Positions 2,000 through 31,880 of a stretch of DNA of 64,000 nucleotides are shown one piece after another. The stretch spans positions 974 to 64,973 of the forward strand of contig CAVQUI010000008.1 in assembly GCA_963716775.1 (NCBI GenBank), written 5' to 3'. Within the stretch, counting starts at the first letter, position 1, and each line of letters starts with the position of its first letter. A model generated the notes under the pieces. The model made no database searches. It had not been told where the DNA came from and worked only from the letters and a program-made list of their open reading frames with translations. The translations under genes and the position numbers were made by a program. Source of the DNA: an uncultured delta proteobacterium (GTDB lineage Bacteria; Myxococcota_A; Polyangia; Polyangiales; Houyiibacteriaceae).

Positions 2000-2048
2000 C
2001 GGCTACGAATGGCAAGCAACGGCTGCGAAGGCAAACAACGGCTGCGAG
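2000..2048 (+). repeat. About 2.5 imperfect tandem copies of a 19-20 bp unit (CGGCTRCGAA..GGCAARCAA)
   Basis: cggctacgaatggcaagcaa (2000-2019), cggctgcgaaggcaaacaa (2020-2038), cggctgcgag (2039-2048). Confidence 0.7.
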
Positions 2049-12355: not shown

Positions 12356-12411
12356 AGAGGAATTCTGGAGGGCCACTTACGATTCCACCGCGCGTTGCTA
12401 TACGCAACACA

Positions 12412-12558
12412 ATGAGCAGGACATCGATCTTCACATCGTCGCTCGCCGTCGCACAGGCCCTCGGCGGCGAGGACGGGTTCCTGTGCGAGCCTCAGCCGAA
12501 CTGCGAGCTCCCGTGCTTCAACGACGTTTGGCGCTACGCTTTTCCGACGAACCAGTGA
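12412..12558 (+). CDS. Putative 48-aa small protein with three Cys
   Basis: ATG at 12412; its TGA overlaps the GTG start of the next gene (GTGA). Confidence 0.35.
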   Translation: MSRTSIFTSSLAVAQALGGEDGFLCEPQPNCELPCFNDVWRYAFPTNQ

Positions 12559-14075
12559 CCCGAGAGACTCACAAACCCGACGTCGTCGTGATAGGGGCTG
12601 GCTTCGGCGGATTGGCCTGCGCACTGCGACTCGCCGAGCTGGGTGCCGACGTCGTCTTATGCGAGACGCTGCGCTATCCGGGAGGCTGCGCCAGCACCTT
12701 CACTCGGAGTGGGTATCAATTCGAAGCCGGTGCAACTCTCTTTTCCGGGCTCGGTGACGGACAACTTTTCTCCAATTGGAACGACAACTGGGATCTCGGA
12801 GTTCGCTTCGATCCCATTGACCCGCTCGTCGAGCTACGCACAGGGCAATGGTCGCTCCCGATTCCACCGGACCGGGATTCGTTCTTTCTGCGATTCAGTG
12901 AGCTGCCGGGCGCGGATTCCGAAGCGCTGCGCGGCTTCTTCCGGACCCAGCATCGAATGGCGGACTCACTGTGGAAGCTGTTTGAAGACCCAAGCCTCCT
13001 GCCGCCGCTGAGCAGCCGCTCCGTACTACGTCATCTCGGGCGGTCGTTGTCCTACGGCCCTGTAGTTCGGTGGATGGGACGTTCTCTTGCCGATGTGGTG
13101 TCGCACCACGGCCTTGCGGGCTGCGAGCCATTGCGGGTCTACCTCGATGCGGTGAGTCAGATTACCGTCCAAGCCAGCTCCAACGAAGCCGAGGCGCCGT
13201 TCGCGATGGCAGCCATCGACTACTTCTTTCGGGGCACCGGCCATGTTCACGGGGGAATCGGAAGCCTGGCTTGGGCTTTGGTACGCGCCGTTGAGAAGGC
13301 AGGCGGTAGGGTTAGGCTTGCAAATCGCGTGCACGGAATTCGGCGCGAAGGAAATGAATGGCATGTGGACACTCGGCAAGGCGAGCTCCAAGCGCGGACC
13401 GTGGTGGCCAATGTCCTGCCCCAGTCCCTGTCCGCAATGACGGAGCCCCAGATGAACGGAGAGCTCAGTGATGTCGAAGCTGCGGTCGAGTCCGGATGGG
13501 GCGCGGCGATGCAGTATCTCGTCGTCGACGCGAAGGCGGTCGAAAGTGCTGGCGCCCACCACTTGCAGCTGGTCGATGAAGAGAGCGCGCCGTTCGTAGA
13601 GGGTAATCACGTGTTCTGCTCGATCAGCGCCGCCGATGAACACGAGCGGGCACCCGACGGACAACGCACGGTGACGGTTTCCACGCACGTGCCCATGCAC
13701 AAGCTCCGCGACCTCGACCCGAAAGATCAGGGAGCCTACGTGGGGTCGATTCAGGACCGAATGCGAGAGACCATAGGTCGGCGGGCACCCGAGCTCCTCG
13801 AGCACTCGGTCTTCGAAATGACAGCTAGCCCTCGAACCTTCGCAAGATTCACGGGGCGACATCAGGGCTACGTCGGAGGGGTGCCGCGGCGCGTGGGATT
13901 GAGGCACTATCGGCCACGCGCGCTTTGGCCGCGTCAGCCATCCCCTGGTCTTTATCTGGTGGGTGATTCGGTGCTGCTCGGGCAGAGCACCCTCGCAGTA
14001 GCGCTTGGTGGGGTGCGCACGGCCGAACGGATCGCTTCGCAACACGCCTTTCCCGATGGGGTCGCACCGTCATGA
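12555..14075 (+). CDS. crtD: FAD-dependent carotenoid desaturase of the CrtI superfamily, resembling cyanobacterial-type C-3',4' desaturase CrtD
   Basis: 'VVVIGAGFGGL', 'PGGCASTFTRSGYQFEAGAT', 'SPRTFARFTGRHQGYVGG', 'LYLVGDS'. The specific CrtD assignment is tentative. Confidence 0.6.
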   Translation: MTRETHKPDVVVIGAGFGGLACALRLAELGADVVLCETLRYPGGCASTFTRSGYQFEAGATLFSGLGDGQLFSNWNDNWDLGVRFDPIDPLVELRTGQWSLPIPPDRDSFFLRFSELPGADSEALRGFFRTQHRMADSLWKLFEDPSLLPPLSSRSVLRHLGRSLSYGPVVRWMGRSLADVVSHHGLAGCEPLRVYLDAVSQITVQASSNEAEAPFAMAAIDYFFRGTGHVHGGIGSLAWALVRAVEKAGGRVRLANRVHGIRREGNEWHVDTRQGELQARTVVANVLPQSLSAMTEPQMNGELSDVEAAVESGWGAAMQYLVVDAKAVESAGAHHLQLVDEESAPFVEGNHVFCSISAADEHERAPDGQRTVTVSTHVPMHKLRDLDPKDQGAYVGSIQDRMRETIGRRAPELLEHSVFEMTASPRTFARFTGRHQGYVGGVPRRVGLRHYRPRALWPRQPSPGLYLVGDSVLLGQSTLAVALGGVRTAERIASQHAFPDGVAPS

Positions 14076-15558
14076 TTTTCGCTCCCTCCGACCGCGTTCG
14101 CGCCCTCAACGACCTGCCCCTTCGAGCCGATGGTACTCATGTCGTCTATTGGATGGTTGGCTTTCGTCGCCCGAGGTGGAACTTCGCACTCCAGCACGCC
14201 GCTGCGCACGCAGCGCAGCTCGGTAAACCGCTCGTCATTCTCGAAGCGCTTCGCGTCGGTTACCCTTGGGCAAGCGACCGGCTCCATCGATTCATCCTCG
14301 ATGGGATGCGCGCAAATGCGAGGCACCTGAAGGGCAAGAACGTCGTCTACTTCCCCTACGTCGAGGCAAAGGGGGGGACGGACGTGGTCTGCTGGCGGCA
14401 ATCGCCAAAAACGCCTGTGTGCTGGTGAGCGATGACTATCCGACATTCTTCATTCCGAAGATGCAAGAGGCGGCGGCCTCCTCGATGGACTTCCGACTAG
14501 AGGTCGTGGACAGCAACGGCCTGCTTCCGATCCGGGCGGGCGATAAGAGCTTCAGCAGAGCGCATGACTTTCGCCGCCACCTACAACGCGAGCTCCCCAA
14601 GCACCTCGGCACCCTGCCCCTGGTGGATCCGCTCGACGGTCTTTCGAAGGTAACCAAGAAGACGAGTGAGATGCTCCTCAGAGCGACGAGCGGACGCTGG
14701 ATTGCCGCATCGGATGATGTGCTCAGCGGAACGACGATCCAATCGTTGCCGCTGGATCACTCCGTGCCTGCAGTCGACCTGGAAGGTGGCTTCGAGGCCG
14801 GCGAACGCCGGCTGGAAGAATTCCTGAGCAACGGCATCGATCGATACGCCGAAGACCGAAACCACCCCGACAAGGGCGGGACCAGCGGCTTTTCGCCGTG
14901 GCTGCATTTCGGCCAGCTCTCGTCACACCAGATCTTCGACGAGCTCAGCAAGAACGAAGGCTGGACTGTCCCCGAAGTCCCGCCGAAGGCGACAGGATCA
15001 CGCGAGGGCTGGTGGGGTATGAGCGTGAACGCGGAGGCGTTCATCGACCAGCTCGTGACCTGGCGGGAGCTCGGCTTCAACATGAGCGCTCATCGATCGG
15101 ACTACGATCGGTACGAGTCACTGCCCGCCTGGGCGCGTCAAACCCTCGAGGAGCACGAAACGGACCCGCGTCCTCATCTCTATTCGCTCGAGGATCTCGA
15201 GCTCGCGAGAACCCACGATCCCATCTGGAACGCTGCTCAAACGGAGCTGCGCGAAACGGGAAGGCTACAGAACTATCTGCGGATGTTGTGGGGAAAGAAG
15301 ATCCTCGAGTGGTCACCGACGCCGAGAGACGCACTCGCGGCGATGATCGAGCTCAACAACAAGTATGCGTTGGACGGTCGCGACCCGAACAGTTACTCCG
15401 GCATCTTCTGGATACTCGGTCGTTATGACCGAGCCTGGGGACCCGAGAGAGCCATCTTCGGAAAGATCCGATACATGAGCTCGGAGAACGCGAAGCGAAA
15501 GCTCCGAATGTCCGACTATCTCAAGCGCTTCGGACCGCCCGCGGATAGACATGAGTAA
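14072..15558 (+). CDS. phrB: Class II CPD photolyase (frameshift at the G-run near 14371-14380)
   Basis: N part 'VVYWM...WNFALQHA'; C part 'SPWLHFGQLS', 'THDPIWNAAQ', 'MLWGKKILEW', 'NNKYALDGRDPN', 'ERAIFGKIRYM'. Confidence 0.9.
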
Positions 15559-16574
15559 GAGTATGCTCGAGCGCGGATTGGTCCCCGACCCGCTTCTACG
15601 CTTTGGCATTCGCCGCATCTGCCAGCATCGGCTTTGGAAACTGCGCCACGCGAGGCCCGACGAGCTAGCGCGCCACGTGGAAGCACTTCGACAAAGCCCC
15701 GTTGCCGCTCAGCCGGAGGCGGCCAACGCACAGCACTATGAAGTGCCCTCCGGCTTCTTCGCGGCGGTCCTCGGGCCGCGCCTGAAGTACAGCTGCTGCA
15801 CCTGGAACGACCAAGCCCGGTCGCTCGCTGACGCGGAGATACGCTGCACTCGTGCAAGTGCAGAACAGAGCGGATCTCGACGATGGCCAGAGGATCCTCG
15901 AGCTCGGCTGCGGTTGGGGGTCGCTCACACTCTGGATGGCCGAGCGCCTTCCGAACGCACAGATCACCGCGATCAGCAACAGTCATGGCCAGCGCGAGTT
16001 CATCGAGCAGAGGGCGCGCGAGCGAGGTCTACACAACGTCCGCCTGATCACAGCCGATGCGAACACTCTCCGTCTCGAGGGTCCGTTCGACCGCGTCGTT
16101 TCGATCGAGATGTTCGAGCACATGCGCAACTGGGAGGCGCTACTGTCGCGCATCGCCGGCTGGCTCTCCGACGACGGCAAGCTCTTCGTTCATGTCTTCG
16201 CCCACGAACGCTACGCCTACCTCTACGAAGACCAAGGGCCTTCCGATTGGATGGCTCGCCACTTCTTTACGGGGGGACAGATGCCCTCCGATGACCTCTT
16301 GCTCGCATTCCACAATGACCTCGTCGTCACCGAACGGTGGCGTCTTGGCGGAGAGCACTACGCGAAGACCTCGAACGCTTGGCTCGCGAATTTGGATCTT
16401 CATCGAGACGAGGCCCTCGCGGCACTCGGGACGGTGACCGACCAGGACGAGGCTCACAGGGCCTACCATCGCTGGCGCATCTTCTTCATGGCCTGCGCTG
16501 AGCTCTTCGGGTATCGCGATGGACGCGAGTGGGGCGTGAGCCAGTACCTTCTGCGGAAGCGGAAGGCCGAGTGA
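15551..16574 (+). CDS. SAM-dependent methyltransferase of the cyclopropane-fatty-acid synthase/coclaurine N-methyltransferase family (frameshift near 15840)
   Basis: 'ANAQHYEVP...LGPRLKYSCC', then 'ILELGCGWGSL', 'VVSIEMFEHMRN', 'WRIFFMACAELF'. Confidence 0.88.
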
Positions 16575-16611
16575 AGGTGCGGACCGCTAGCAAGACCGCC
16601 AGCGCTGAGCG

Positions 16612-17556
16612 CTAGCAGCCGGCGTACGGCAGGCCGTCGAGGTGCTCTCGAAGTTGTTTTCGATAGGCTGCTCTCGGTGGCCTGACCGTCAGCCTGAGCC
16701 ACATCCCCGTTGCTCCGACTACGAGGGCCAGCTTCTTGGACCAGGGAACCACAACTCGCCCCCGCATCGGATTGCTCTTATAGCTGCGGCGAAGCCGTCG
16801 GCCGATGCCTTGATACAGGCGGCTCGCGACGAGGATCGCCCAGCGGGCGCGAGTCGGCAAAAAACGCATTCCCTCGTCCGCGCTCCGATAGTAGCCGTCC
16901 GCCATCACGAGCACTTCGTCCACTACCAAGCTCACTGCCTGTGGGTCGGCTTCTCCTTGGATGAGATCATCTGCGTCAACGCCGTATGCGTTGAGGCGCG
17001 CGGTCGGCAGGTATACCCTCGACGCCTGCGCATCTTCGAGCACGTCGCGTGAGATGTTTGTCAGCTGCATCGCAATCCCGAGGTCGATCGCGTGACGCCA
17101 TGCGCGCGGATCGCGGACCCCGAGCACGGAGCACATCATCAAGCCGACGGTGCCCGCCACACGGTAGCAGTACCGCAGCAGCTCCCTGTCGGACTGAAGT
17201 CGTACCAGGCCAAGATCCGAGGTCATTCCGTTCAGCAGCTCGCCAACGACGTTGAAATCGATGCCGCACTGGAGACAAAGCTCCCGAAACCAGAGGTAGC
17301 TCTCTGGCCAGAGCGACTCGCCGTCCGGCTCCGCTGCGAGCGCCGCACGCATTTTCTCGAGGTCTTGCCGCGCCTCAGGCGTTACCCACTCTGCGTCGGC
17401 GAGATCATCGACTGCTCGGCAGAACGCGTAAAGGGCGACGACCCTTTGGCGCTGCGCGCGGCTGAGGAAGGCAGCCGCCCAGCGGAAGGACCGCGCGCGG
17501 AATGCCAGAACCTGCCAATGTGCGATGTCGCGCGCCTGCTCTTCGTTCGTGCTCAT
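16612..17556 (-). CDS. crtB: Phytoene synthase
   Basis: 'LYAFCRAVDDLAD', 'YCYRVAGTVGLMM', 'LGIAMQLTNISRDVLED', 'RVYLP'. Confidence 0.95.
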   Translation of the reverse strand: MSTNEEQARDIAHWQVLAFRARSFRWAAAFLSRAQRQRVVALYAFCRAVDDLADAEWVTPEARQDLEKMRAALAAEPDGESLWPESYLWFRELCLQCGIDFNVVGELLNGMTSDLGLVRLQSDRELLRYCYRVAGTVGLMMCSVLGVRDPRAWRHAIDLGIAMQLTNISRDVLEDAQASRVYLPTARLNAYGVDADDLIQGEADPQAVSLVVDEVLVMADGYYRSADEGMRFLPTRARWAILVASRLYQGIGRRLRRSYKSNPMRGRVVVPWSKKLALVVGATGMWLRLTVRPPRAAYRKQLREHLDGLPYAGC

Positions 17557-19070
17557 GCCGTCACCGCCTCTCCTACCGAGGCCAAGCGGCTTCGGCTCTC
17601 GGGCTGAGGCACGACCCTCTCGAGCACTTTGGCAGAAGACAAGACGCCCGGAAGGCCAGCCCCAGGGTGGACGCCGGCACCGACGAAGTAGAGGCCCGCA
17701 ACGTCTTCGGATGCATTGTGAAAACGGAAGTAAGCCGATTGGCGCAAGGTGGGTTCCAGACCGAACGCCGCACCTTGGTATGAACGAAGCTCGTCCTCGA
17801 AGTAGGTCGGATCGACGTGGAACTGCGTGACGAGGTTGTCACGAAGCCCGGGAAGGTGATGCGCATCGAGGGCGTCCAGGATGCGGTCCATGTAGCGAGG
17901 GCCCTCGACTGCCCAGTCGAGACCGCTCTGTTGATTGGGAACGGGAGATAGAACGTAGAAACTCTCTCCACCCGGAGGCGCCAGGCTCGGATCGGTGCGC
18001 GTCGGGGCGTGAAGATAGAGAGAGAAGTCCTCGGCAAGCGTTTTGCGGTCGAAGACATCGGTCAAGAGCTCGCGGTACCTTGGGCCAAGGAGGATCGAGT
18101 GGTGCGCGAGGTCGGGATACGTTGTTTTCGTCCCGAAGTAACCGACGAAGAGGCTCATTGAATATCGTTTTCGAGCAACCGAAGCGTCGGAATGCTTTCG
18201 TCGCGCCGAGGCGTCGATCAGCTTCGTGTAGACCGTGGCCGGATCCGCATTCGAGACAATGATATCGGACTCGAGGAAGGTTCCGTCTTCCAGGAGGACG
18301 CCTTTGGCCCGACCGTTCAGGACCTCGATGCGCTCGACCGGTGCGTTGAGTCGAACGTCCACACCCACTTCGCCGAGCAGGCGGGTCAGCCCGCCAACGA
18401 TGGCCGTGGTTCCGCCCATTGCGAAGTGGATTCCCCACTTCCGCTCGAGCCAGTGGATCAGCAGGTAGATCGCAGGAGCTCGAAAAGGGTTTCCGCCGAT
18501 GAGCAATGGCTGGAACGTGAACACCTGCCGTAGAGCGTCGTCTTTGATGTAATGGGACACGAGGCCGTAGAGGCTCTTGTAGGCCCGCAGCCGCACCAGT
18601 TCCGGGACGATTCGCATCATATCCCCGAAGCGCGAGAAATCTGCGTCGACGAGCTGAGTGTATCCGACGTCGAAGATTCTCTTCGAGTGCTCGACGAGCT
18701 TCTTGTACCCCTCGACGTCGCTCGGGTTGAACTTGGCGATCTCCGCGAAGAGGCGCTCGTCGTCACCCACGTAGTCGAAATCCCGACCATCCGGGAACAC
18801 GACGCGGTAGAAGGGGTCGACAGGGACCAGGTCGAAGTAGTCTCGCCGGTCTTTGCCGAAGAGCTCGAACAGCTCGTCGAAAAGATGGGGGGCCGTGATC
18901 ACCGTCGGACCGGCATCGAAATGAAAGCCTTCGCTTTCGAATGCTCGAGCCCGGCCGCCAGCTTGGTTGCCAGCTTCAACCACGGTGACGCCATGGCCCA
19001 TGGCCCGCAGACGAGCCGCGGCAGCAAGACCTCCAAACCCTGCTCCAATCACGATTGCTTGCTTAGCCAT
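17553..19070 (-). CDS. crtI: Phytoene desaturase
   Basis: 'VIGAGFGGLA', 'FDAGPTVIT', 'LLIGGNPF', 'QSAYFRFHN', 'VGAGVHPGAGLPGVLSSA'. Confidence 0.95.
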   Translation of the reverse strand: MAKQAIVIGAGFGGLAAAARLRAMGHGVTVVEAGNQAGGRARAFESEGFHFDAGPTVITAPHLFDELFELFGKDRRDYFDLVPVDPFYRVVFPDGRDFDYVGDDERLFAEIAKFNPSDVEGYKKLVEHSKRIFDVGYTQLVDADFSRFGDMMRIVPELVRLRAYKSLYGLVSHYIKDDALRQVFTFQPLLIGGNPFRAPAIYLLIHWLERKWGIHFAMGGTTAIVGGLTRLLGEVGVDVRLNAPVERIEVLNGRAKGVLLEDGTFLESDIIVSNADPATVYTKLIDASARRKHSDASVARKRYSMSLFVGYFGTKTTYPDLAHHSILLGPRYRELLTDVFDRKTLAEDFSLYLHAPTRTDPSLAPPGGESFYVLSPVPNQQSGLDWAVEGPRYMDRILDALDAHHLPGLRDNLVTQFHVDPTYFEDELRSYQGAAFGLEPTLRQSAYFRFHNASEDVAGLYFVGAGVHPGAGLPGVLSSAKVLERVVPQPESRSRLASVGEAVTA

Positions 19071-20115
19071 GATATGCCCCTTTCACCTCGTCCAGCGGAG
19101 CGAGTACGCGCTCGATGAGCTCGCGCGCGACCGCTTCGAGACCGGCCGAGGTGCTCAGCGGCCCTGAGGCCGACAGCTCGGAAGCCAGCGCCTGAATCCG
19201 CTCGAGCAACTGCTGTGTAGCGCCACCTGCAATGAACCGCGCGATCAGTCGGTCCACCTCCTCGTGAGGGGTTCCCTCGCGCGGCCTGGCGAGGGTCTCG
19301 AAGACCTCTCCAGCGTCCTCTGGATGAAGATCGAGATGCGTCAAGACCACCGCAGTCAGCCGCCCCTGATAGATGTCGCTTCCGCGCGCACCGCGACCCT
19401 TGGCGTCAAACAGGTCGAGCAAGTCGTCCTGGAGCTGGTAAAGGACGCCGATCGAGTTGAAGGTCTGTGCCAAGTGGTTTGCCTGCTCGTTCTCGAGCCC
19501 GGCAATCTGCGCAGCGCCGCGGACCGGAAGCGCGAACAGCGTGCCGGTCTTGCCGGACACCGCGCCAAAATACTCGCCCCAGCCTTTGCTGGGCGATGCA
19601 GCCAACGCAAGCTCGCTAATCTGCCCGCGCGCGGTGCTCTCCGCATACTCTGCCAGAATCTGCACCAATGCGGCCTGCAACTCCGCTGGATAGGTGCGAA
19701 GCGCGCGGAACGGAAGCATCAGCAATAGGTCACCTGTATTGATTGCCTGGGCCGAGCCGTAGCGAGCCCATAATGCAGGCTTGCCGCGCCGCGTGCGATC
19801 TCCGTCCTGAATGTCGTCATGGACGAGCGACGCATTGTGGAGAAGCTCGACAGCGGCGGCCCAGTCGACGGCATCTTCGGCGCGACCTCCCAGAGCCTGA
19901 CAGGCCGCGATTGCGAGCCGAGCACGCAGTCGTTTGCCGCCAGAATCGAGATGCTCGTGGACCATCCGGGCCCCGGGGTCTCGAGCGCGGTCTCCAGCAA
20001 GGTCGACCATGCGGGACTCGACCAACGCGAGTAGATCCCCCTGGTCCAGGAGGGCGGACACCAAAGCTCTGGCGTGTTTGAATGCGGTCGTAGAAGTGGC
20101 AGTGGCTGCTTTCAT
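19063..20115 (-). CDS. crtE: Geranylgeranyl diphosphate synthase
   Basis: 'GGKRLR', FARM 'ELLHNASLVHDDIQD..RRG', 'GKTG', SARM 'YQLQDDLLD'. ATG 20115 overlaps the upstream stop. Confidence 0.92.
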   Translation of the reverse strand: MKAATATSTTAFKHARALVSALLDQGDLLALVESRMVDLAGDRARDPGARMVHEHLDSGGKRLRARLAIAACQALGGRAEDAVDWAAAVELLHNASLVHDDIQDGDRTRRGKPALWARYGSAQAINTGDLLLMLPFRALRTYPAELQAALVQILAEYAESTARGQISELALAASPSKGWGEYFGAVSGKTGTLFALPVRGAAQIAGLENEQANHLAQTFNSIGVLYQLQDDLLDLFDAKGRGARGSDIYQGRLTAVVLTHLDLHPEDAGEVFETLARPREGTPHEEVDRLIARFIAGGATQQLLERIQALASELSASGPLSTSAGLEAVARELIERVLAPLDEVKGAYHG

Positions 20116-21344
20116 GTCGTACCTGGTTGAAGAGCGGATCTCAGGAGTGGGGCTGCGCCGGCCGACAGTCCCGTTCGGAAGAGGTGCCAGCGAACAGACG
20201 CAGGCAAGCTGCGAAATATCTGCGTCATGGAGAAGCCGAGCGCGGAGGGGGACAGGTTGCCGGACAGAAAGCCGGACCACACGTCCCTTGGGAGTTGGAA
20301 GAACGCATCGAAGAACCGTGCGATCTCGGTCGCGCTCATACCGACGAGAGTCTCGAGACCAAAGCCGTAGAGCTCCCAGGCGGTTCGCTGTGGGCGCGGC
20401 CAGAGCGTGGCGTTCCCCGAGGCAATCGCGAGGGCGGCGTCACCCGATGCCAAACCGGCGAGAATCGACTCGGCGACGGGATCTGCCTGACGCAGAACAC
20501 GCGAAATCAAGTAGCCCGACGCGGGATGAACCATGGCTCCAGCCGCGCCGAAGGGCACCAGAGGCTGTCGAGGTTTCGGAAGGCCGAGGCCCATCGGGAT
20601 CGAACAGTGCTCTTCGCTCAGACGCTCACACTGTTCTAAGCCGAGCCGTCCTAAACGCGTGTCGAGGCGCGCACTGAGCACATCGAGACGCATGGCAGGG
20701 CGACGCGCGAGCGAGGTCTCCTCGATGAAGAGACGATCCTCGCCAAGTGGCAGCACGTAAAGAAAGGAAGGAGGGCCGGACGCGTGGCTCGACACCTCGC
20801 GGAAATCCATCAAGACCATTCGGTTTGGATCAAAGCCGTGATTCGGTGCGCGCAGCAGAAGTCCGAACGCCGTTTGAAAGGCGGGGGCGCGGCGATGCAC
20901 GCGTTGGATGAACCGGCTGCCTGCGCCGGACGCGTCGATGACGACTCGGACACGCTTCGTTGAGCCATCCTCGATATGAACTCGAGTCTCCCCCTGACGG
21001 TGATCCAACCTCGTCGCTCGATCCGAGGTGACATGCACGGACCCCGAGCGCAGCGTGTTCCAGAGGAAGCCTTGAAGTGCGCGCGTGTCGAGCTTGACGT
21101 AGGGCCGCTCGAGAACCTGACTCCGCCACGGCGTCACGACGCACGCTTCGGCCCAGACCTGCTCGATCAGGTCCTCCATCCCCTCGGGGAGCTCGTCAGC
21201 CCATAGGCAGTAGTTCGGCTTCCATGGCGACTCGGGCTCGGGGGCGATCAGCGCAACCGACGCGCCACGTCGGGCACAGGCGGCTGCTATGCACATTGCA
21301 GCCGGACCGCTTCCGAGAACTCCGATGTCGTGTAGATTGTCCAT
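20112..21344 (-). CDS. crtL: Lycopene cyclase, CrtL-type flavoprotein
   Basis: 'VLGSGPAA', 'NYCLWADE', 'VIDASG', 'FLYVLP...FIEETSLA', 'EEHCSIPMG', 'MVHPASGY'. Confidence 0.88.
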   Translation of the reverse strand: MDNLHDIGVLGSGPAAMCIAAACARRGASVALIAPEPESPWKPNYCLWADELPEGMEDLIEQVWAEACVVTPWRSQVLERPYVKLDTRALQGFLWNTLRSGSVHVTSDRATRLDHRQGETRVHIEDGSTKRVRVVIDASGAGSRFIQRVHRRAPAFQTAFGLLLRAPNHGFDPNRMVLMDFREVSSHASGPPSFLYVLPLGEDRLFIEETSLARRPAMRLDVLSARLDTRLGRLGLEQCERLSEEHCSIPMGLGLPKPRQPLVPFGAAGAMVHPASGYLISRVLRQADPVAESILAGLASGDAALAIASGNATLWPRPQRTAWELYGFGLETLVGMSATEIARFFDAFFQLPRDVWSGFLSGNLSPSALGFSMTQIFRSLPASVRWHLFRTGLSAGAAPLLRSALQPGTT

Positions 21345-21374
21345 GACGCGTTGACGAATGGAGCTTATGCGACC

Positions 21375-21413
21375 AAAACACAACCTTGACAAGACATGGA
21401 CAGTATTTAGACC
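21375..21413 (+). promoter_or_regulatory. CarA/CarH (LitR)-type operator: four hexamers at exact 11-bp spacing overlapping a TTGACA -35 box
   Basis: AAAACA (21375), TTGACA (21386), TGGACA (21397), TAGACC (21408), in the divergent crtL/crtU spacer. Confidence 0.7.
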
Positions 21414-21475
21414 AATGATTCACGAATGAAATTGAAAATTCTACGTATATCGAAGAGTGACGGGACCTTCACCAG

Positions 21476-23384
21476 ATGAATTGGTCCTGGTTGATTCTCG
21501 CGGCCATCTTGCTGGCGGCCTGGCTATTGGTGCGGCGGGGCAATTGGGCCCCGGCCCTCGGGGGGCTGATCGAGCGAAAGCTCGGAGGCTACCGGCAAGC
21601 GGCAAACGCGGTCGATCGCAGCTTGCCGCGCCTGCTCAGCGGTGAGGCCTCTCGCGTGGCCGTGCTCGGAGGCGGCCTGGCAGGAATCGGGGCCGCAGCG
21701 GCACTCGGCCAACGAGGGATTGCTGTCACGCTATTCGAACGCAATGCGTACCTCGGCGGGAAGATTGGCGCGTGGAAGGTCCCTGTGGGCGAGGGGGAAC
21801 AGACGATCGAGCACGGGTTTCATGCCTTCTTCCGGCAGTACTACAACCTCAACCGCTTTCTCGATCGTCTGGGCGTTCGCGACGGCTTCCGAGAGATCGA
21901 AGACTACCTAATACTCGATGGCGACCGGCGTCCGCTGAGCTTTGGAGATGTCGAGACAATCCCTGCGCTCAACATCATCGACCTCGGGAGGCGCGGATTT
22001 TTCCGGTGGCGCGATGTAATCAACAATCGCACGCGTAAGCCGGCTCGATGCCTTCGTTCGGTTCGACATGAAGCAAGTCTATGAGGCATTCGATGAGACC
22101 TCATTTGAACGCTTCTGCGACGAAGCCGCGCTGCCCGCTGAGCTTCGTGTCTCGTTTCGCACGTTTGCGCGTGCATTCTTCTCGGACGAAGCAGATCTCT
22201 CTACCGCAGACGTGCTCCGCGCGTTTCACTTCTACTACCTCAGCCACGACCTCGGCCTGATGTACGACTACCCGGCAGGCGACTATGAAACGACGCTTCT
22301 AAGGCCAATTCGCGCAGATTTGGAGGCTAACGGTGTCGACATCCGACTGAGTAGTCCCGTTGACGGCATCGACCCTGGCGACCGAAAGCGCTTTCGGATC
22401 GCAGGCGAGGAGTACGATTGGGTCGTGATCGCAGCGGACATTCCAGGCATGCAGCAGATCCTCAAGGGCTCGGATTGGCTCAGGGAGGCGCGCCCTGATT
22501 TCGTGGCGGACATGCAGGCGCTGCGGACCTCACATGGGTACGCGGTCTGGCGCATCTGGGTGGACCGCGACGTTCGTCCAGGCTTGCCTACTTTCGTCAA
22601 TGTGGATCGCCGGCGGGTGCTCGACTCAGTCACTCTCTATCACCGCATCACCGACGAGGCGCGGGAGTGGGCCGAGGCTCATGGCGGCGCCGTCCTCGAG
22701 CTCCACAGTTACGCGCTGTCACGTGACGTCGATGGCGAGGCGGAGGTAAGACGCCTCTTTCTCGAAGAGCTCGAGTACTACTTCCCGGAGCTTGCGGGAT
22801 TGTCGATCAGCGCGGATGTCTTGCAGGTTCGTCATGACTTCCCAGCGTTTGCCCCTGGACAGCGCGCCTTACGACCCGAGCCGAAATTGCCCATCGAGGG
22901 ATTGCTCATGGCCGGCGATTGGGTCCGCCTGCCATACCCGATGACTCACATGGAGGCCGCGTTCACTTCGGGATTGTTATGCGCCAACGCGATCTTCGAC
23001 GCGCTTGGCCTTCAAGAGGAACCGATTTTCACGGTTGCGCCGAAGGGACTGCTACGACCGAAACGAGCCGCGCCGCTAGCGACTGAGCTCCGCTTCCACC
23101 TGCGCGAGGTCCGATTGTATCTGCGCCCCAGTCTCGTTGCGCAGCTTGGCCGCTCGTTCCGGGGAGCGACCTCATCTCTTTGGCGTGCCTCGAACCGCTC
23201 AACCCTTCACGAAGAACGCAGGCCATACGAATGGATCGAGGAAGGCGGTCTGCAGAGCAAAAAGCAGGAGCGCCACGATGGTCACCACCCCGACCGGTCC
23301 AGTCGGACGCGGACTGAGATTGAAGATGGACACGATCAGACCGATCGCGCCGACGCCTACGACGATCAGATCCGTTCGGATTAG
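21476..23384 (+). CDS. crtU: CrtU-type carotene desaturase/methyl-migrating aromatase (isorenieratene synthase-like). Frameshift near 22040; the true stop is probably near 23090.
   Basis: 'VAVLGGGLAGIGAA', 'HGFHAFFRQYYNL', 'FARAFFSD', 'FHFYYL', 'GGAVLELHSYAL', 'AGDWVRLPYPMTHMEAAFTSGLLCAN'. Confidence 0.8.
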
Positions 23385-23741
23385 AAACCAGAGCGCGCTA
23401 GAGGGATCATCGAGATACGCGAAAGTCAGAGGCATCCAAATGGCCGATGCAACGACCACGGCCGCGCAACAAGCGTTGATGACACCCAATCCGAACCGCT
23501 TCCCAACCTGGACCTCGGCGGCCTCGACTCGAAACAGGACGTAGTACATGAACACGAGGTAGCCCGCCGTTGCGAGCCACATCGTCACCCCGTAGACGCC
23601 CTGTAACGGCTCCGGCATGTCGCCCCAGAGCAGACCGCGCGTTTGTGGGTGCGTGATCAATCCGTGCGCGTAGCTACCGAGCACTGCGATGCCGCCCAGC
23701 ACGTTGATCGCAAGCCATTGTTTCTTTTGTGGGTGCATCAT
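23199..23741 (-). CDS. Hypothetical 5-TM membrane protein
   Basis: ATG 23741 overlaps the upstream stop; 'INVLGGIAVLGSY', 'SAIWMPLTF', 'QTAFLDPFVW'. Confidence 0.75.
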   Translation of the reverse strand: MMHPQKKQWLAINVLGGIAVLGSYAHGLITHPQTRGLLWGDMPEPLQGVYGVTMWLATAGYLVFMYYVLFRVEAAEVQVGKRFGLGVINACCAAVVVASAIWMPLTFAYLDDPSSALWFLIRTDLIVVGVGAIGLIVSIFNLSPRPTGPVGVVTIVALLLFALQTAFLDPFVWPAFFVKG

Positions 23742-24727
23742 CCTGCCTCTGCGTCCTTCACGAACGCGTCTACCCGCGACCATTGCTCGTAGAGCCAGAG
23801 AATCCGCTCTTGGTTGGTCGTGGGAATCTCTGACCGTCGCACGCGCCAGACTCTGCCGCGAACCCTCGAGCCGACTACGGATCCACTCAGGACGTCTTTG
23901 ACGTTTTGGAGCCCCTCGAGGCCTCGGTGCGCGACAATCGCGCAATCCACGTCTGGCAGGGCGTCGAGGAGAGTCAGCACGCCACCTGTGTGGGGGGGCA
24001 GGACATGAGTCAATGCCTCCGCCGCCAGGGCGAGCTCCGGGGACTGCTTCCGAACTCGCTTGCGTGCGCGCACGAGCTTCTCGGCGGAAAACCGAGTTCC
24101 CTCTGGGTAGATCAAAACGCCCTCATCGCCTAGGTCTTCGACGAGCGCCCGGATGCCTTCGAGCTCGCGCCCACGATCTCCGCTTCGGTCCACGAAGTAG
24201 TTGGGAAGCGCGTTGCCAACGATGTCGAGGCAGGGGTCGAACAACAACTCTTGCTTCAGTATGTAGCGCACACGCCACTGCGTGGGACGCTGGACGTAGA
24301 CGCTGGGGAGAAGCGTGTCGAGGATGCTGGCATGGCGCATGAGCACGATGGTAGGCCCCGGCAACGCAGCTTCTGGATCATCAATTCGAACGTCGAGGTT
24401 CAATAGCTTGCCGACTATGCTCAAGATCGCGCTGCTCCACCACTGCTGCAAACTGAATAGGCGAGCTTGGAGATCGTCGGGGCTTCCTCGCAGAAAAGCG
24501 AATGCGAGAGCTAGCCTAACTAGCGCGACCATCGCGATGCCGAAGAAGACCCATGCGAAGATCAGAAGGCGCAACGCGACGAACGAACGACGCCGAATGA
24601 CTCCGATGATCGCGCCTGCCGCGAGCCACAGCGGTGCTAGCAGAGTCAGCAGGACCCAGCTGGTCAGGTACAGGGAGATTGTGATCGCCCTACGACGGAC
24701 TGGCCGTTCCTTCTTCGGTTTAACCAT
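23738..24727 (-). CDS. PlsC/LPLAT-family acyltransferase
   Basis: HX4D 'RHASILD', 'YILKQEL', 'IYPEGTRF', two N-terminal TMs. Confidence 0.9.
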   Translation of the reverse strand: MVKPKKERPVRRRAITISLYLTSWVLLTLLAPLWLAAGAIIGVIRRRSFVALRLLIFAWVFFGIAMVALVRLALAFAFLRGSPDDLQARLFSLQQWWSSAILSIVGKLLNLDVRIDDPEAALPGPTIVLMRHASILDTLLPSVYVQRPTQWRVRYILKQELLFDPCLDIVGNALPNYFVDRSGDRGRELEGIRALVEDLGDEGVLIYPEGTRFSAEKLVRARKRVRKQSPELALAAEALTHVLPPHTGGVLTLLDALPDVDCAIVAHRGLEGLQNVKDVLSGSVVGSRVRGRVWRVRRSEIPTTNQERILWLYEQWSRVDAFVKDAEAG

Positions 24728-24736
24728 CTCGCGCGC

Positions 24737-25735
24737 TCATTTGTTCTCTGCGAGCGATTCGAGGGTGCCGGACCATCCGCTGTAGCGGCATAGCTCGGAC
24801 CACAGAGCCTCGCGCTCCTCGGAGGTTTCGCGGGTTCTTGCGAATCGATGGGTCGGGCGGGGTCTTCGATCGTGCCAGAATTTCCCCGTACATCGTGCCG
24901 CGTCGTCAGCCGCGCAGAGCCAGACGATGGTATCTGCGCCTTGCGCAGGGCTCCGCAGAAGCGGCTTTGTGATCTTGTAGAACCGTGGGAGGGATGTCGA
25001 GACCCCGGGCGTGTCCGCCCACCCGGGATGCATGGCGTGCACGACGATACCGCGCGGGGCGAGCGCTTCAGCCCACATTTCGGTCAGGATGACCTGGCCC
25101 CGCTTCGTGCGGGCGTAGGCCTTCGCCCCGTCATACGTTCCGCGCTTATTCTGAAGATCCTTCACCAAGATGCGCTGAGCGTACATTCCACCCGAAGACA
25201 CGTTGACGATACGCGCGGGCGCCGACGCGGCAAGCTTGGGCACCAGCAGGTTCGTAAGCAAGAACTGTCCCAGAAGGTTAGTCGCAAACGTGGTTTCGAT
25301 GCCCTCAGTCGTCTCGCTGCGAGTCGGCAGCAGGACCCCCGCGTTGTTGACGAGAATATGAATCGGAGTTTGCAGTCGACCGGCGAGCGCTCGCACGTCG
25401 GACATCACACTGAGGTCTGCGACTTCCACATGAACTGCGTCGTTTCCAGTCTGTTCGGCGATGGCCTTCGCAGCCTGTTGGGTTCTGCCCCTATCTCGAC
25501 CGACGATCCAAACGCTCGCGCCAAGATGCGCCAATGCCGTCGCGGTGTACTTGCCCAGGCCGGACGTGGCTCCCGTGACCAGGGCCGCGGTGCCACTGAG
25601 GTCAGTGTCGATGGTCGAGTGAGGCCGCCAACGGTAGCCAAGCGACGTATATCCGAGCAATGACTTGTCTAGAAACCGATCGATCACCCAGGGTATTTGG
25701 AACCAGTGACATGGATCCGCAACCGAGGAATCCAT
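24737..25735 (-). CDS. Short-chain dehydrogenase/reductase (DHRS12/retinol-dehydrogenase-like); start may be GTG 25687
   Basis: 'TGATSGLG', 'LVNNAG', 'VSSGG', YxxxK 'YARTK', 'MHPGWADTPG'. Confidence 0.9.
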   Translation of the reverse strand: MDSSVADPCHWFQIPWVIDRFLDKSLLGYTSLGYRWRPHSTIDTDLSGTAALVTGATSGLGKYTATALAHLGASVWIVGRDRGRTQQAAKAIAEQTGNDAVHVEVADLSVMSDVRALAGRLQTPIHILVNNAGVLLPTRSETTEGIETTFATNLLGQFLLTNLLVPKLAASAPARIVNVSSGGMYAQRILVKDLQNKRGTYDGAKAYARTKRGQVILTEMWAEALAPRGIVVHAMHPGWADTPGVSTSLPRFYKITKPLLRSPAQGADTIVWLCAADDAARCTGKFWHDRRPRPTHRFARTRETSEEREALWSELCRYSGWSGTLESLAENK

Positions 25736-30035: not shown

Positions 30036-31880
30036 CTACCCGCGGACGCGTTCCAACGCCAGGTCGTGCGCCTCGTCGTAGTGTCGCCCGAGGTTGTGCC
30101 AGTCGAAGTGTTCGCTGAAGGCTTCCACCGAGTTGCGGAGAATGACCCGCTCGCGCCGGCTCAGGGTTGTGAACCGGAACAGACGGTCGGTCAGCTCGTC
30201 GGCGGCGCGGTGGAAGTCGTTGTGTCGACGGGGCACCACGTACATGCCCTTGGACGCGTGGTCGGGCACCAGCTGGTGGAGGTACGAGCCGAAGCCCGAC
30301 AGGTCGCTGGTCACCGCGGGCACGCCCAGCGCGATCGATTCGAGCGGCGTGTAGCCCCAGGGCTCGTAGTAACTGGGGAACACGCCCAGGTGGCAGCCGC
30401 GCACGAACTGCTCGTACTCCATCCCGAACAGAGGGCTGGTGGCCTGCACGAAATCGGGATGGAAGACGACCTTGACCGGGTCGCCCTCCTGGTTGAACAG
30501 CCGGCAGTTGCGCAACTGGTTCAGCACGGGATCGTGGGCGTCGTCGACGAGGTCGTGGGTGACGATGCCCGGCGAGGGCCTCGCTCTTCCAGGCCTGGAT
30601 CGCGCGGCGGAGGCGTAGCCGCCAGTAGTCTTCCATCAAGCCATTGAGGTCGGGGATCTCGCCGGTCGCGGCGGCGCGGAAAAGCCCGTCGCCGACGGAC
30701 TCCTTTACCGCATTGGCGGCAGTGCGGAACTCGCGAAGCATCACGCGACTCTGCAGCGCGCGGACGTTGATCGAGCGGAACGGAGCCTTGGTGATGATGA
30801 AGAAGACGACCGTGACGGGGCTTCCCGTCTCCCGAAGCCGGTGGTTCAGCCGGGCCAGCGCCTCGATGGTCAGGTCCATACCCTTGTTGAGGTACTCGTA
30901 CCGGCCCGAGGTGAACATGTAGAGCGTGTTGTCGAGGTCGAAGTTGTAACTGGGGAAGAAGTGCCCCATCGAGAACCGGTGTAGCCGTTCTTTGTACTGC
31001 TGGTGAAGCGTCTGGAACTCGTGGGTCGCGGTGAACCGGCGGATGTTCAGTCCATTGGGCAGCAGCATGTCCGGCGTGCGCCCGAGCAGGTGGGTGCACT
31101 CCTCCGCGGTGACGTCGGACACCGTAGTGAAGACATGTGACGCATGTGCAGCGGCCTTCTCGATCTGGTGCTGAGCGTGAATGTTGAAGTTCTTGGCTTC
31201 CCGATCCCCGTCGAACCGGGGCAGGTCGTCGTAGAACGAAGCATTGCCGGTCGCTAAATAGCGGCCGACCAGGGTCGCGTGCGTGGTAAACACGAGCGAG
31301 CCCGGCCAGCCCTCCTTCCTCAGCATCGGGATCGCCATACCGGCCTGCCACTCGTGGAAGTGGGCCAACGATCTGGCGGCGCTGCGACTCCTCCTGCGCG
31401 AGGATCGACAGCAGCGCGCGACACATCTCCCCAAAAGCCACAGGCGTCATCGACGTTCGTCTCGTCGCTCCCAGGGATTCCGTGGTCGGCCCAGACCCGG
31501 TACTTGAGCTCGTTGAGCGACCCACGAACCGTACCGACGTCCAGCAGCACCACGTGCGGACGGCCGCTGACGAGCCAGCGACCGTAGTGGGCGCCGTAGC
31601 CCATCTCGCGCAGTCGCTGCACCGCCCGTCCGAACGGTCCGTCCAGCGGCGCCGGCGCGAACTCGACCTCCGCGGTCTGCGGGTTGTAGGGACCCACGAG
31701 GCAGTACCGTTCGCCCCAGCGGCTCATCATGCTCGGGACCTTCGATCGCAAAACGGTGTAGATCCCGCCTACCTGGTTGCAGACCTCCCAGGCGATTTCC
31801 ATCAGCAACGGCTCGACCTGGCCCACAGCGATGTTCTCTCGGGCCTTCTTACTTGTCGACGGAGGGGCGGATGGAGCCAT
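30036..31880 (-). CDS. Glycogen synthase, GT3 (yeast/animal-type) family; about 3 frameshifts (~31440, ~31370, ~30575)
   Basis: 'EIAWEVCNQVGGIYTV', 'HFHEWQAG', 'FTTHATLVGR', 'PNGLN', 'SGRYEYLNKG', 'FPSYYEPWGYTP.E'. Confidence 0.92.

What the first reader, a model, noticed from the sequence alone, without database searches (positions are those of the whole stretch)
12555..23100. Complete route to aromatic (aryl) carotenoids in a probable myxobacterium
Seen: crtE, crtB, crtI, a CrtL-type cyclase and a divergent flavoprotein with 'GFHAFFRQYYNL' and no Rieske insert. Established: that motif set matches actinobacterial CrtU, which aromatises beta-rings (beta-carotene to isorenieratene; gamma-carotene would give chlorobactene). 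Aryl carotenoids are mainly known from green and purple sulfur bacteria, actinobacteria and some cyanobacteria, and their fossils serve as photic-zone euxinia biomarkers. Inference: an apparently non-phototrophic Myxococcota lineage could make aryl carotenoids. The CrtD-like enzyme hints at a monocyclic aryl product with a modified psi end, although no hydratase (CrtC/CruF) is visible in the window.
Basis: partly seen in the sequence, partly recalled or inferred. Interest (0 to 1): 0.85.

Follow-up and report, generated by a model that had tools for sequence, protein, structure and literature searches.

The report
Carotenoid cluster with CrtU-like gene
A marine-sediment myxobacterial genome carries an ordinary carotenoid gene cluster plus a relative of the enzymes that make aromatic carotenoids, but this relative belongs to an untested branch of that family and similar predictions for myxobacteria are already in print.

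Summary
The genes are real. The window holds crtB, crtI, crtE and a CrtL-type cyclase on the minus strand (16612-21392), and a divergent CrtU/CruE-family flavoprotein (21476-23086) without a Rieske insert. The contig is Myxococcota, not actinobacterial.

The flavoprotein has two frameshifts, at 22036 and 23074. Both are absent from a 93%-identical same-genus locus and from every Logan contig of four runs that covers them. The window differs from that relative by 54 frame-breaking indels, so these are probably long-read assembly errors.

In a rooted tree the protein sits in a well-supported 53-row clade in which I identified no characterised enzyme. That clade is sister to the insert-less actinobacterial-type CrtU clade, and the Rieske-type CruE/green-sulfur CrtU clade lies outside both. 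Some clade members are fused to a lycopene cyclase.

An aryl product is therefore plausible but inferred. Isorenieratene synthesis in Myxococcota was already predicted from annotation (PMC10576062). No reaction-centre gene was found in this genome, but 5 of 55 same-genus genomes have one.

Verdict: new member of a known kind, moderate interest.

The parts
12483..14075 (+). CrtD/CrtISO-like FAD oxidoreductase of unknown specificity
   Evidence: TIGR02733 scores 199.8 bits (cut-off 549.7) and carotenoid isomerase 129.2 bits. Relatives at 55-87% identity occur in Myxococcota MAGs and in Bradymonadales (Persicimonas, Lujinxingia). Sources name them only 'phytoene dehydrogenase-like' or 'FAD-dependent oxidoreductase'.
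14072..15558 (+). Class II photolyase, read in two frames (14072-14428 and 14266-15558); break at the G7 run 14363-14369
   Evidence: TIGR00591 scores 295.8 bits but covers only model positions 110-452. The G7 homopolymer is visible. Logan contigs carry one more base at 14370 or 14373. G021 shows no indel here, so it shares the short run.
15551..16574 (+). CMAS-family SAM-dependent methyltransferase, frameshifted by an extra base at 15841
   Evidence: The intact G021 orthologue (363 aa) scores PF02353 145.8 bits. The extra base at 15841 is seen against G021. It is absent from all covering contigs of 4 runs. It has no tblastn match to the Streptomyces anulatus crtY-MTase-crtU locus.
16612..17556 (-). 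crtB, phytoene synthase
   Evidence: PF00494 223.7 bits. NCBIfam CrtB and HpnD models both score below their cut-offs. The assignment rests on its position between crtI and the cluster. Synteny is kept in L025, L026, L031, L033 and L034.
17553..19070 (-). crtI, phytoene desaturase
   Evidence: TIGR02734 scores 607.6 bits against a cut-off of 238.1.
19063..20280 (-). crtE, polyprenyl (GGPP) synthase. This is the longest ORF; the true start probably lies downstream of the crtL stop at 20112
   Evidence: PF00348 scores 184.6 bits over residues 105-345. The ORF overlaps crtL by 169 bases.
20112..21392 (-). CrtL-type lycopene beta-cyclase; intact, and the only strong cyclase match in the genome
   Evidence: PF05834 268.1 bits; TIGR01790 306.3 bits (cut-off 209.5); NF045687 317.1 bits (cut-off 500). 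There is a single strong PF05834 match in G000. There is no indel against G021.
21393..21475 (.). Divergent intergenic region between crtL and the crtU-like gene
   Evidence: Sequence shown. The sigma-70 and terminator consensus scan found nothing. Thiodictyon has the same divergent cyclase/desaturase layout (crtY and the cruE-type gene).
21476..23086 (+). CrtU/CruE-family flavoprotein without a Rieske insert; N-terminal hydrophobic stretch; FAD-binding fold. It is broken in the assembly at 22036 (extra T) and 23074 (missing G)
   Evidence: P0003: 536 aa, 92% identical, intact; exactly two indels against G021 in 3.4 kb; all covering contigs restore the frame; tree; 15 of 16 family-specific columns.

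Best explanation
This is a carotenoid gene cluster of an uncultured marine-sediment member of the Myxococcota. Its closest named relatives are Polyangiales-type MAGs.

The inferred pathway is:
- CrtE makes GGPP.
- CrtB makes phytoene.
- CrtI desaturates it to lycopene.
- The single CrtL-type cyclase makes beta rings (gamma- and/or beta-carotene).
- The divergently transcribed CrtU/CruE-family flavoprotein then most likely desaturates the beta ring with a methyl shift, giving an aryl end group. The products would be isorenieratene, beta-isorenieratene or chlorobactene-type carotenoids.

Shown: the gene identities, the taxonomy, the family membership, the conserved cyclase-desaturase pairing, and that the two frameshifts are absent from relatives and from environmental contigs.

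Inferred: the catalytic outcome. The protein lies in a large clade in which I identified no characterised enzyme. That clade is sister to the insert-less actinobacterial-type CrtU clade. Also inferred: which rings and how many are aromatised, and whether the gene is intact in the living cell.
For: Gene identities.

Taxonomy: relatives at 63-92% identity are named Polyangiales, Sandaracinaceae, Polyangiaceae, Myxococcales or Myxococcota MAGs.

Family placement: IQ-TREE, 95 rows, rooted on green-sulfur CrtP/CrtQ-like proteins.
- The window protein is in a 53-row clade (SH-aLRT 100).
- That clade joins the actinobacterial-type clade (Streptomyces anulatus, Mycobacterium, Rhodococcus, Micromonospora and others) at SH-aLRT 99.
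- The Rieske-type clade (Thiodictyon CruE-type, Thiohalocapsa, Calothrix, three FMO-positive genomes) branches outside.
- Enzymes known to aromatise therefore lie in the sister clade and in the next clade out.

Signature residues: of 16 columns at least 90% conserved in those two clades and at most 30% in the outgroup, 12 are kept at 90% or more in the window's clade. The window has the family residue in 15.

Link to cyclisation:
- crtL and crtU are divergent neighbours here. In one search, 20 of 24 same-genus genomes matched the crtU part of the query (my count from its rows).
- All 11 close relatives L024-L034 have crtL upstream.
- Three of three clade members of 738-780 aa that I scanned (P0123, P0135, P0150) carry an N-terminal Lycopene_cyc domain (PF18916) fused to the desaturase.
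- 14 of 47 clade loci have a CrtL hit and 14 of 47 a CrtYcd-type hit.

Frameshifts as artefact:
- There are exactly two indels against G021 in 3.4 kb, and G021 is intact.
- There are 54 indels of length not divisible by three over the 64 kb. At least seven other window genes have shorter open frames than in G021.
- Every covering contig of runs X1, X2, X5 and X6 (3 studies) lacks one base at 22036 or 22039. Every one has either +G or -5 at 23068-23073, and both restore the frame.
Against: - I identified no biochemically characterised enzyme in the 53-row clade. Identity to Streptomyces CrtU is only 32-35% and to Thiodictyon CruE 33%. Function is extrapolated across a deep split.
- The tree is a 'quick' search with SH-aLRT support only. 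It has several long branches and many rows of odd composition.
- One family-specific column (P in 90% of the characterised-type clades) is never P in the window's clade.
- In the assembly as given, the gene is broken twice.
- The Logan contigs are assemblies, not reads. They mix strains at 90-99% likeness and may include the source sample, so they show that intact alleles exist, not that this cell's allele is intact.
- No expression data were obtained.
- 19 of 47 clade loci showed no cyclase with my two queries. Many of those loci are short, and CruA-type cyclases were not sought.
Confidence: 0.55

Rival explanations
1. The clade to which this protein belongs is a functionally diverged branch of the CrtU/CruE family. 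It acts on cyclic carotenoids but makes something other than the known phi or chi aryl rings, for example a partly desaturated ring or another methyl pattern.
For: It is a separate, strongly supported clade in which I identified no characterised enzyme. Identity to characterised types is only 32-38%. One family-specific column is changed throughout the clade, and two others are kept in only 55-57% of its rows. Members occur in lineages not known to me for aryl carotenoids, such as Ignavibacteriota, Flavobacteriales, Spirochaetota and Binatia (that knowledge is recalled). Unusual fusions to FA_hydroxylase, UbiA and glycosyltransferase domains occur among relatives.
Against: 12 of 16 family-specific columns are kept across the clade, and 15 of 16 in the window protein. 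Aromatising enzymes lie in the sister clade and in the next clade out. The tight link to beta-cyclases matches what is seen for CrtU and CruE.
Confidence: 0.25
2. The gene is a true pseudogene in this strain. The pathway then ends at beta- or gamma-carotene, and the intact copies seen elsewhere belong to other strains.
For: There are two frame-breaking indels in one 1.6 kb gene, and none in the adjacent 6 kb holding crtB, crtI, crtE and crtL. Neither site is a long homopolymer. The Logan contigs are not proven to come from the same cell line.
Against: The same assembly has 54 frame-breaking indels against G021 in 64 kb, spread over many unrelated genes. One lies in a G7 run of the photolyase gene. 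Contigs with 0-3 differences from the window flank the sites, and every contig that crosses them restores the frame. Apart from the two indels the reading frame carries no stop, and the protein is 92-96% identical to intact relatives.
Confidence: 0.1
3. The flavoprotein is not a carotenoid ring enzyme at all, but an HpnE-, CrtP- or CrtQ-like squalene or phytoene pathway desaturase.
For: The best NCBIfam hits are HpnE (108.9 bits for P0003), phytoene desaturase and zeta-carotene desaturase.
Against: All of these are far below their cut-offs (283, 569 and 622 bits). Named Thiohalocapsa CruE-type and actinobacterial-type representatives get the same weak hits. The tree separates the whole CrtU/CruE group from CrtP/CrtQ with SH-aLRT 100. 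CrtI already supplies phytoene desaturation in the cluster.
Confidence: 0.03

Closest known systems
Actinobacterial CrtU (beta-carotene desaturase/methyltransferase giving phi rings; first cloned from Streptomyces griseus, as cited in PMC10604819, passages read)
   Same: Same family and the same insert-less architecture of about 500-540 aa. It has the shared HGFHAFFRQYYN-type motif, lies beside a lycopene cyclase, and occurs in a non-phototroph.
   Different: It is only 32-35% identical and belongs to a different, sister clade. The Streptomyces anulatus locus has cyclase, a class I methyltransferase and crtU in one direction, with a DUF5914 gene beside crtB. The window has neither of those two genes: its CMAS-family methyltransferase has no match to that locus.
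CruE of purple sulfur bacteria and cyanobacteria, and CrtU of green sulfur bacteria (chi- or phi-ring synthases)
   Same: Same family. The layout is the same divergent cyclase/desaturase pair as crtY and the cruE-type gene on the Thiodictyon syntrophicum plasmid. Identity is 33%.
   Different: These proteins are about 620-710 aa. A Rieske [2Fe-2S] domain was shown by Pfam for the Thiohalocapsa representative (PF00355 in P0177). The Calothrix copy is annotated as a Rieske component. The Thiodictyon, Calothrix and three FMO-positive-genome copies match P0003 in two pieces around an insert. The window protein has no insert and lies outside that clade.
CrtU/CruE (K09879) homologues already reported from annotation in Myxococcota with photosynthesis gene clusters (PMC10576062) and in Binatota (PMC8262859); 'lycopene cyclase fused to CrtU' in cultured myxobacteria (PMC9304148)
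   Same: Same phylum, and very probably the same protein clade. Binatia MAGs, Enhygromyxa salina and Nannocystaceae fall in the window's clade. The prediction is the same: beta-carotene converted to isorenieratene.
   Different: From the passages I read, those papers rest on KEGG or BLAST annotation. They do not place the proteins against characterised enzymes and offer no pigment data for this step. No reaction-centre gene was found in the window's genome.

Membership tests
CrtU/CruE family (carotenoid beta-ring desaturase/methyltransferase) | FAD-binding Rossmann fold plus amine-oxidase-type domain | tested here: met
   PF13450 and PF01593 are found in both pieces. The full-length match is seen in the intact relative P0003.
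CrtU/CruE family (carotenoid beta-ring desaturase/methyltransferase) | Family-wide sequence signature | tested here: met
   The pattern HA[FYV]Fx[QH]Y[YH]N, derived from alignment A1, found 587 confirmed relatives. The window encodes HGFHAFFRQYYNL. It has the family residue in 15 of 16 family-specific columns. The groups for that count were taken from my own tree.
CrtU/CruE family (carotenoid beta-ring desaturase/methyltransferase) | Groups with characterised CrtU and CruE to the exclusion of CrtP, CrtQ and HpnE-like proteins | tested here: met
   Rooted tree. The window's clade and the actinobacterial-type clade join at SH-aLRT 99, and the Rieske-type clade is the next group out. CrtP/CrtQ are separated at 100. 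This was a quick search without bootstrap. The named anchors are orthologues inferred from organism and context, not the published sequences themselves.
CrtU/CruE family (carotenoid beta-ring desaturase/methyltransferase) | Genomic association with a lycopene beta-cyclase | tested here: met
   It is a divergent neighbour of crtL. The pairing is kept in L024-L034 and in 20 of 24 same-genus genomes (my count from the rows). Fusions to PF18916 occur in P0123, P0135 and P0150.
CrtU/CruE family (carotenoid beta-ring desaturase/methyltransferase) | Catalyses ring aromatisation with a methyl shift | not testable with these tools
   I identified no characterised member in the window's clade. This needs heterologous expression and HPLC-MS.
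CrtU/CruE family (carotenoid beta-ring desaturase/methyltransferase) | Uninterrupted reading frame | tested here: inconclusive
   The frame is broken at 22036 and 23074 in the assembly. It is intact in G021, in more than 100 relatives and in all covering Logan contigs. Raw reads of the source were not available.
Actinobacterial CrtU orthologue group (Streptomyces griseus type) | Falls inside the actinobacterial-type clade | tested here: not met
   It is in the sister clade, at 32-38% identity.
Actinobacterial CrtU orthologue group (Streptomyces griseus type) | Cluster partners as in the Streptomyces crtY-MTase-crtU locus (class I methyltransferase and a DUF5914 gene) | tested here: not met
   The layout of the S. 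anulatus locus is given. The window's methyltransferase is CMAS family and has no tblastn match to that locus. No DUF5914 was seen among the window ORFs scanned.
CruE / green-sulfur CrtU type | Rieske [2Fe-2S] insert in the middle of the protein | tested here: not met
   No PF00355 was found. P0177 has it. The green-sulfur-type, Thiodictyon and Calothrix copies match in two pieces around an insert.
CrtL-type lycopene cyclase | Scores above the curated cut-off of the lycopene cyclase family model | tested here: met
   TIGR01790 scores 306.3 against 209.5. The narrower equivalog NF045687 scores 317.1, below its cut-off of 500. Whether it forms one ring or two cannot be told.
CrtD (C-3',4' desaturase) | Scores above the equivalog cut-off and co-occurs with a 1,2-hydratase | tested here: not met
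   It scores 199.8 against 549.7 bits. No CrtC (PF07143) or CruF (PF04240) was found in the genome (genome 91.8% complete).

The most novel reading that the evidence does not exclude
The insert-less clade holding this protein may be a third working branch of the aryl-carotenoid synthases. It is carried by mostly non-phototrophic sediment and soil bacteria of several phyla: Myxococcota, Binatota, Spirochaetota, Ignavibacteriota, Bacteroidota and Thermodesulfobacteriota. If so, benthic heterotrophs such as this marine-sediment myxobacterium could make isorenieratene- or chlorobactene-type pigments in place. Their fossil products would then add to the known doubts about reading aryl isoprenoids as markers of photic-zone euxinia.
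Probability: 0.35. Interest if true: 0.7.

Novelty: new member of a known kind. Interest (0 to 1): 0.4.

Why it matters
Aryl carotenoids and their fossil forms are used to infer sulfidic, sunlit ancient waters. Each further group of producers weakens that inference. Cyanobacteria and Streptomyces are already discussed in this light (PMC7395447, PMC9342728, passages read).

The useful result here is not that a myxobacterium has a 'crtU' hit, which is already in print from annotation. It is that these hits, together with those of Binatia, Ignavibacteriota, Spirochaetota and Flavobacteriales MAGs, form one coherent clade in which I identified no characterised enzyme. That clade is sister to actinobacterial-type CrtU and is tightly tied to lycopene cyclases. 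One expression experiment on any member would decide the function for the whole clade.

It also shows that this assembly's frameshifts should not be read as gene decay.

Tried and rejected
- The listing of cluster members on ten clade representatives gave names for only three clusters: Polyangiales, Thiohalocapsa, and the JGI name 'isorenieratene synthase'. It could not anchor the tree. The anchors came instead from plasmid records, from named genome contigs, and from FMO-positive genomes.
- Of five FMO-positive genomes searched, two (G059, G229) had no match at E <= 1e-20.
- The first FastTree was only midpoint-rooted and was used to choose rows.
- I considered the CMAS-type methyltransferase as a counterpart of the Streptomyces cluster methyltransferase. 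I rejected this because it has no match to that locus. Its role in the pathway is unknown.
- I considered the acyltransferase (23738-24727) and SDR (24737-25735) downstream as cluster members. I rejected this because they are kept only in G021 and in none of 19 other related loci.
- I looked for a CarH-type B12 photoreceptor beside the cluster. The B12-binding_2 matches lie on contigs C12, C9 and C4, not on the window's contig.
- The promoter and terminator scan of the crtL/crtU spacer found nothing.
- Expression: two metatranscriptome runs (X19, X20) hold 6-8% of the sampled words. This is no evidence either way.
- Habitat labels of runs with small shares were not used.
- Supplementary files were not opened. 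In particular these include the gene tables of PMC10576062 and the CrtU tree S2 Fig of PMC9342728. They may already show this clade or this genus.
- Papers: for all seven cited papers I saw only the passages returned by 'find'. Krugel et al. 1999 was seen only as a reference-list entry and as cited by others. The Streptomyces griseus gene order is recalled.
- Claim of 'no pigment evidence in print': searches found only annotation-based predictions for Myxococcota. Subscription journals are not covered.

Full report
WHAT IS THERE

The stretch 12.5-23.1 kb of the window holds, on the minus strand:
- crtB (16612-17556; PF00494, 223.7 bits);
- crtI (17553-19070; TIGR02734, 607.6 bits, cut-off 238.1);
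- crtE (19063-20280; PF00348, 184.6 bits);
- a CrtL-type lycopene cyclase (20112-21392; PF05834 268.1 bits; TIGR01790 306.3 bits, cut-off 209.5).

After an 83-base spacer, an amine-oxidase-family flavoprotein runs the other way. It is read as two ORFs, 21476-22084 and 22068-23384. It has no Rieske domain.

Upstream of crtB lie three more genes:
- a CMAS-family methyltransferase (15551-16574);
- a class II photolyase (14072-15558);
- a CrtD/CrtISO-like oxidoreductase (12483-14075), which scores far below the CrtD cut-off at 199.8 against 549.7 bits.

crtL needs no frame correction.

THE FRAMESHIFTS

A same-genus genome, G021, carries the same locus at 93% DNA identity. Over 3.4 kb the window differs from it by exactly two indels, and both are in the flavoprotein gene:
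- an extra T at 22036;
- a missing G at 23074.

The second indel removes the natural stop (23084-23086) and adds about 100 spurious residues.

G021's gene is open over its full length. More than 100 database relatives of 528-557 aa are also intact; the closest, P0003, is 92% identical.

Over the whole 64 kb the window and G021 differ by 54 indels whose length is not a multiple of three. At many of them the open frame is much longer in G021 than in the window. Examples are 1611 against 888 bases at 607, 1092 against 813 at 15841, 1854 against 1446 at 30575-31441, 2505 against 1599 at 35686-37042, and 1923 against 783-1485 at 39021-40831. A few go the other way, for example 2484 in the window against 1767 in G021 at 41638.

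The photolyase break lies in a run of seven G (14363-14369) and is shared by both assemblies.

I laid Logan contigs of four runs from three studies on 12400-23500. Every contig that covers 22036-22039 lacks one base there. The depths with the change were 11.8 of 11.8, 8.9 of 8.9, 12.5 of 12.5 and 53.7 of 53.7. Every contig that covers 23068-23073 has either one more G or five fewer bases, and both restore the frame. The same holds at 15840-15841. At 14370-14373, all covering contigs of X2 and X6 carry an added base. In X1 the added base accounts for 6.32 of 10.1 depth, and X5 has no cover there.

These are contigs, not reads. They mix strains and may include the source sample. They show that intact alleles dominate in the environment, not that this cell's copy is intact. 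Taken with the indel load of the assembly (20 contigs for 4.18 Mb), assembly error is the likeliest cause. A true pseudogene keeps about one chance in ten.

WHOSE GENOME

Relatives of the flavoprotein at 63-92% identity are named Polyangiales, Sandaracinaceae, Polyangiaceae, Myxococcales, Deltaproteobacteria or Myxococcota MAGs. Relatives of the CrtD-like protein are named likewise. The contig is not actinobacterial.

The runs that hold the stretch are labelled sediment, marine sediment or marine metagenomes (shares 0.21-0.74; four of them were laid).

The following were not found in the 91.8%-complete genome:
- reaction-centre L/M (PF00124);
- bacterial rhodopsin, although the control for that model was silent;
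- CrtC;
- CruF.

However, 5 of 55 genomes of the same genus carry pufL and pufM, and all five also carry the flavoprotein gene. So the genus mixes species with and without these genes, and the gene is not tied to them. By my count from the rows, 20 of 24 same-genus genomes match the crtU part of the query. One search gives 16 of 18 same-genus genomes. Across a sample of 401 Myxococcota genomes, 49 (28 of 255 genera) have a family match at E <= 1e-60.

WHICH FAMILY

An exhaustive profile-free search found 163 cluster representatives at E <= 1e-30. They fall into three length classes:
- plain forms of about 500-550 aa;
- forms of about 620-655 aa that match in two pieces;
- fusions of about 720-850 aa.

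A Pfam scan showed a Rieske domain in the Thiohalocapsa representative of the two-piece class. It also showed an N-terminal Lycopene_cyc domain (PF18916) in three of three fusions of 738-780 aa that I scanned. Other fusions carried glycosyltransferase, FA_hydroxylase or UbiA domains.

Named anchors came from three sources:
- Plasmid records. These were the Thiodictyon syntrophicum pTs485 gene next to crtY, a Streptomyces anulatus locus with lycopene cyclase, methyltransferase and desaturase beside crtE/I/B, and a Calothrix 'Rieske' protein.
- 80 named genome contigs.
- Three genomes that carry the FMO protein and are therefore taken as green sulfur bacteria.

P0003 is 32-35% identical to the Streptomyces copies and 33% to the Thiodictyon copy.

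The tree had 95 rows and was rooted on CrtP/CrtQ-like proteins of two FMO-positive genomes. It used IQ-TREE LG+C20 in a quick search with SH-aLRT support. It gives three groups:
(i) A Rieske-type clade with Thiodictyon, Thiohalocapsa, Calothrix and the three green-sulfur-type proteins.
(ii) An insert-less clade of 21 rows (support 99). It holds Streptomyces, Mycobacterium, Rhodococcus, Micromonospora and Amycolatopsis, plus Gemmatimonadota, Acidobacteriota and gammaproteobacterial MAGs.
(iii) A 53-row clade (support 100). It holds the window's protein together with other Myxococcota (Enhygromyxa salina, Nannocystaceae, Archangiaceae, Myxococcaceae MAGs) and Binatia, Spirochaetota, Thermodesulfobacteriota, Ignavibacteriota and Flavobacteriales MAGs.

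Groups (ii) and (iii), with one small extra pair, join at support 99. Group (i) lies outside.

Per the papers read, enzymes known to aromatise beta rings are Streptomyces CrtU, green-sulfur CrtU, and purple-sulfur and cyanobacterial CruE (PMC10604819, PMC7395447, passages). These therefore sit in the sister clade and in the next clade out. I identified no characterised enzyme inside clade (iii).

Of 16 alignment columns that mark groups (i) and (ii) against the outgroup, 12 are kept at 90% or more in clade (iii). The window protein has the family residue in 15.

WHAT IT PROBABLY DOES

The gene order, the single cyclase in the genome and the recurrent pairing or fusion of clade (iii) proteins with lycopene cyclases all point the same way. 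In one search, all 11 close loci have crtL upstream, 14 of 47 clade loci have a CrtL hit, and 14 of 47 have a CrtYcd-type hit. The substrate is therefore probably a beta-ring carotenoid made by the neighbouring cyclase.

By position in the family and by retained signature residues, the most likely reaction is desaturation with methyl migration to an aryl ring. I give this 0.55. It could not be decided whether the product would be diaryl, monoaryl-bicyclic or monocyclic, because the cyclase's ring number cannot be read from sequence.

The CrtD-like protein offers no support for a modified psi end. It is far from the CrtD models, no hydratase was found, and its relatives are unnamed oxidoreductases of Myxococcota and Bradymonadales.

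The methyltransferase is not the counterpart of the Streptomyces cluster methyltransferase. The genes downstream of the flavoprotein are not conserved neighbours.

WHAT IS ALREADY KNOWN

- PMC10576062 (2023; passages read) states that all but one of the Myxococcota families with photosynthesis gene clusters encode a beta-cyclase and CrtU/CruE (K09879). It lists isorenieratene among their predicted carotenoids.
- PMC9304148 (2022; passage read) lists a 'lycopene cyclase fused to CrtU' and CrtL-type cyclases among cultured myxobacteria.
- PMC8262859 (2021; passage read) predicts isorenieratene in Binatota.
- PMC9342728 (2022; passages read) points to close CrtU homologues in non-phototrophs and warns about biomarker use.

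In the passages I saw, none of these tests the product or places the proteins against characterised enzymes. Their supplements, which I could not open, may do the latter. Searches found no pigment evidence for aryl carotenoids in myxobacteria.

VERDICT

This is a real and otherwise ordinary carotenoid cluster in a myxobacterial MAG. It carries a CrtU/CruE-family gene whose breaks are most likely assembly errors. I rate it a new member of a known kind. The aryl-carotenoid reading is plausible but rests on a clade in which I identified no characterised enzyme, and the idea itself is already published as an annotation-level prediction. Interest is moderate (0.4). Most of that interest lies in the fact that one expression experiment could assign a function to a clade that spans at least six phyla.

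Noticed in passing
window 1-64000 against G021 contig 11 (L012-L015): The window and its 96-97%-identical relative differ by 54 indels whose length is not a multiple of three. At least seven further window genes look split, for example around 607, 30575-31441, 35686-37042, 39021-40831 and 46042-47183. A few G021 genes look split instead. Any 'pseudogene' call in this assembly should be treated with suspicion.
   Followed up: partly
window 14363-14369: A run of seven G breaks the photolyase frame. The same short run is present in G021, while Logan contigs carry one more base. This looks like a shared homopolymer under-call in two long-read-style assemblies.
   Followed up: partly
same-genus genomes G003, G010, G012, G015, G018: Five of 55 genomes of the window's genus carry adjacent pufL and pufM genes. 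No such gene was found in the window's genome or in its nearest relative G021. Type II reaction-centre genes are patchy within one genus.
   Followed up: no
proteins P0164, P0174, P0127: CrtU/CruE-family proteins occur fused to a C-terminal fatty-acid-hydroxylase domain (P0164), a UbiA prenyltransferase domain (P0174) or an N-terminal glycosyltransferase (P0127). This is in addition to the lycopene-cyclase fusions.
   Followed up: no
G011:C16:25851-27287 and G464:C2:24834-26264: Two same-genus genomes carry a second family member, only 35% identical to P0003, beside their clade-type copy. Two branches of the family can therefore coexist in one genome.
   Followed up: no
G000:C6:427369-428691: The genome has one strong carotenoid cleavage oxygenase (RPE65 family, 415 bits) on another contig. 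In Calothrix a 'carotenoid oxygenase' gene lies directly after the Rieske-type desaturase gene (L106).
   Followed up: no
L063 (contig named Synechococcus sp. UW140 MAG): A contig binned as a picocyanobacterium carries a member of the window's insert-less clade rather than a Rieske-type CruE. This is either an unusual cyanobacterial gene or a binning error.
   Followed up: no
window 2029-2047: The window has a 19-base insertion relative to G021 that repeats the flanking bases, so it looks like a tandem duplication.
   Followed up: no
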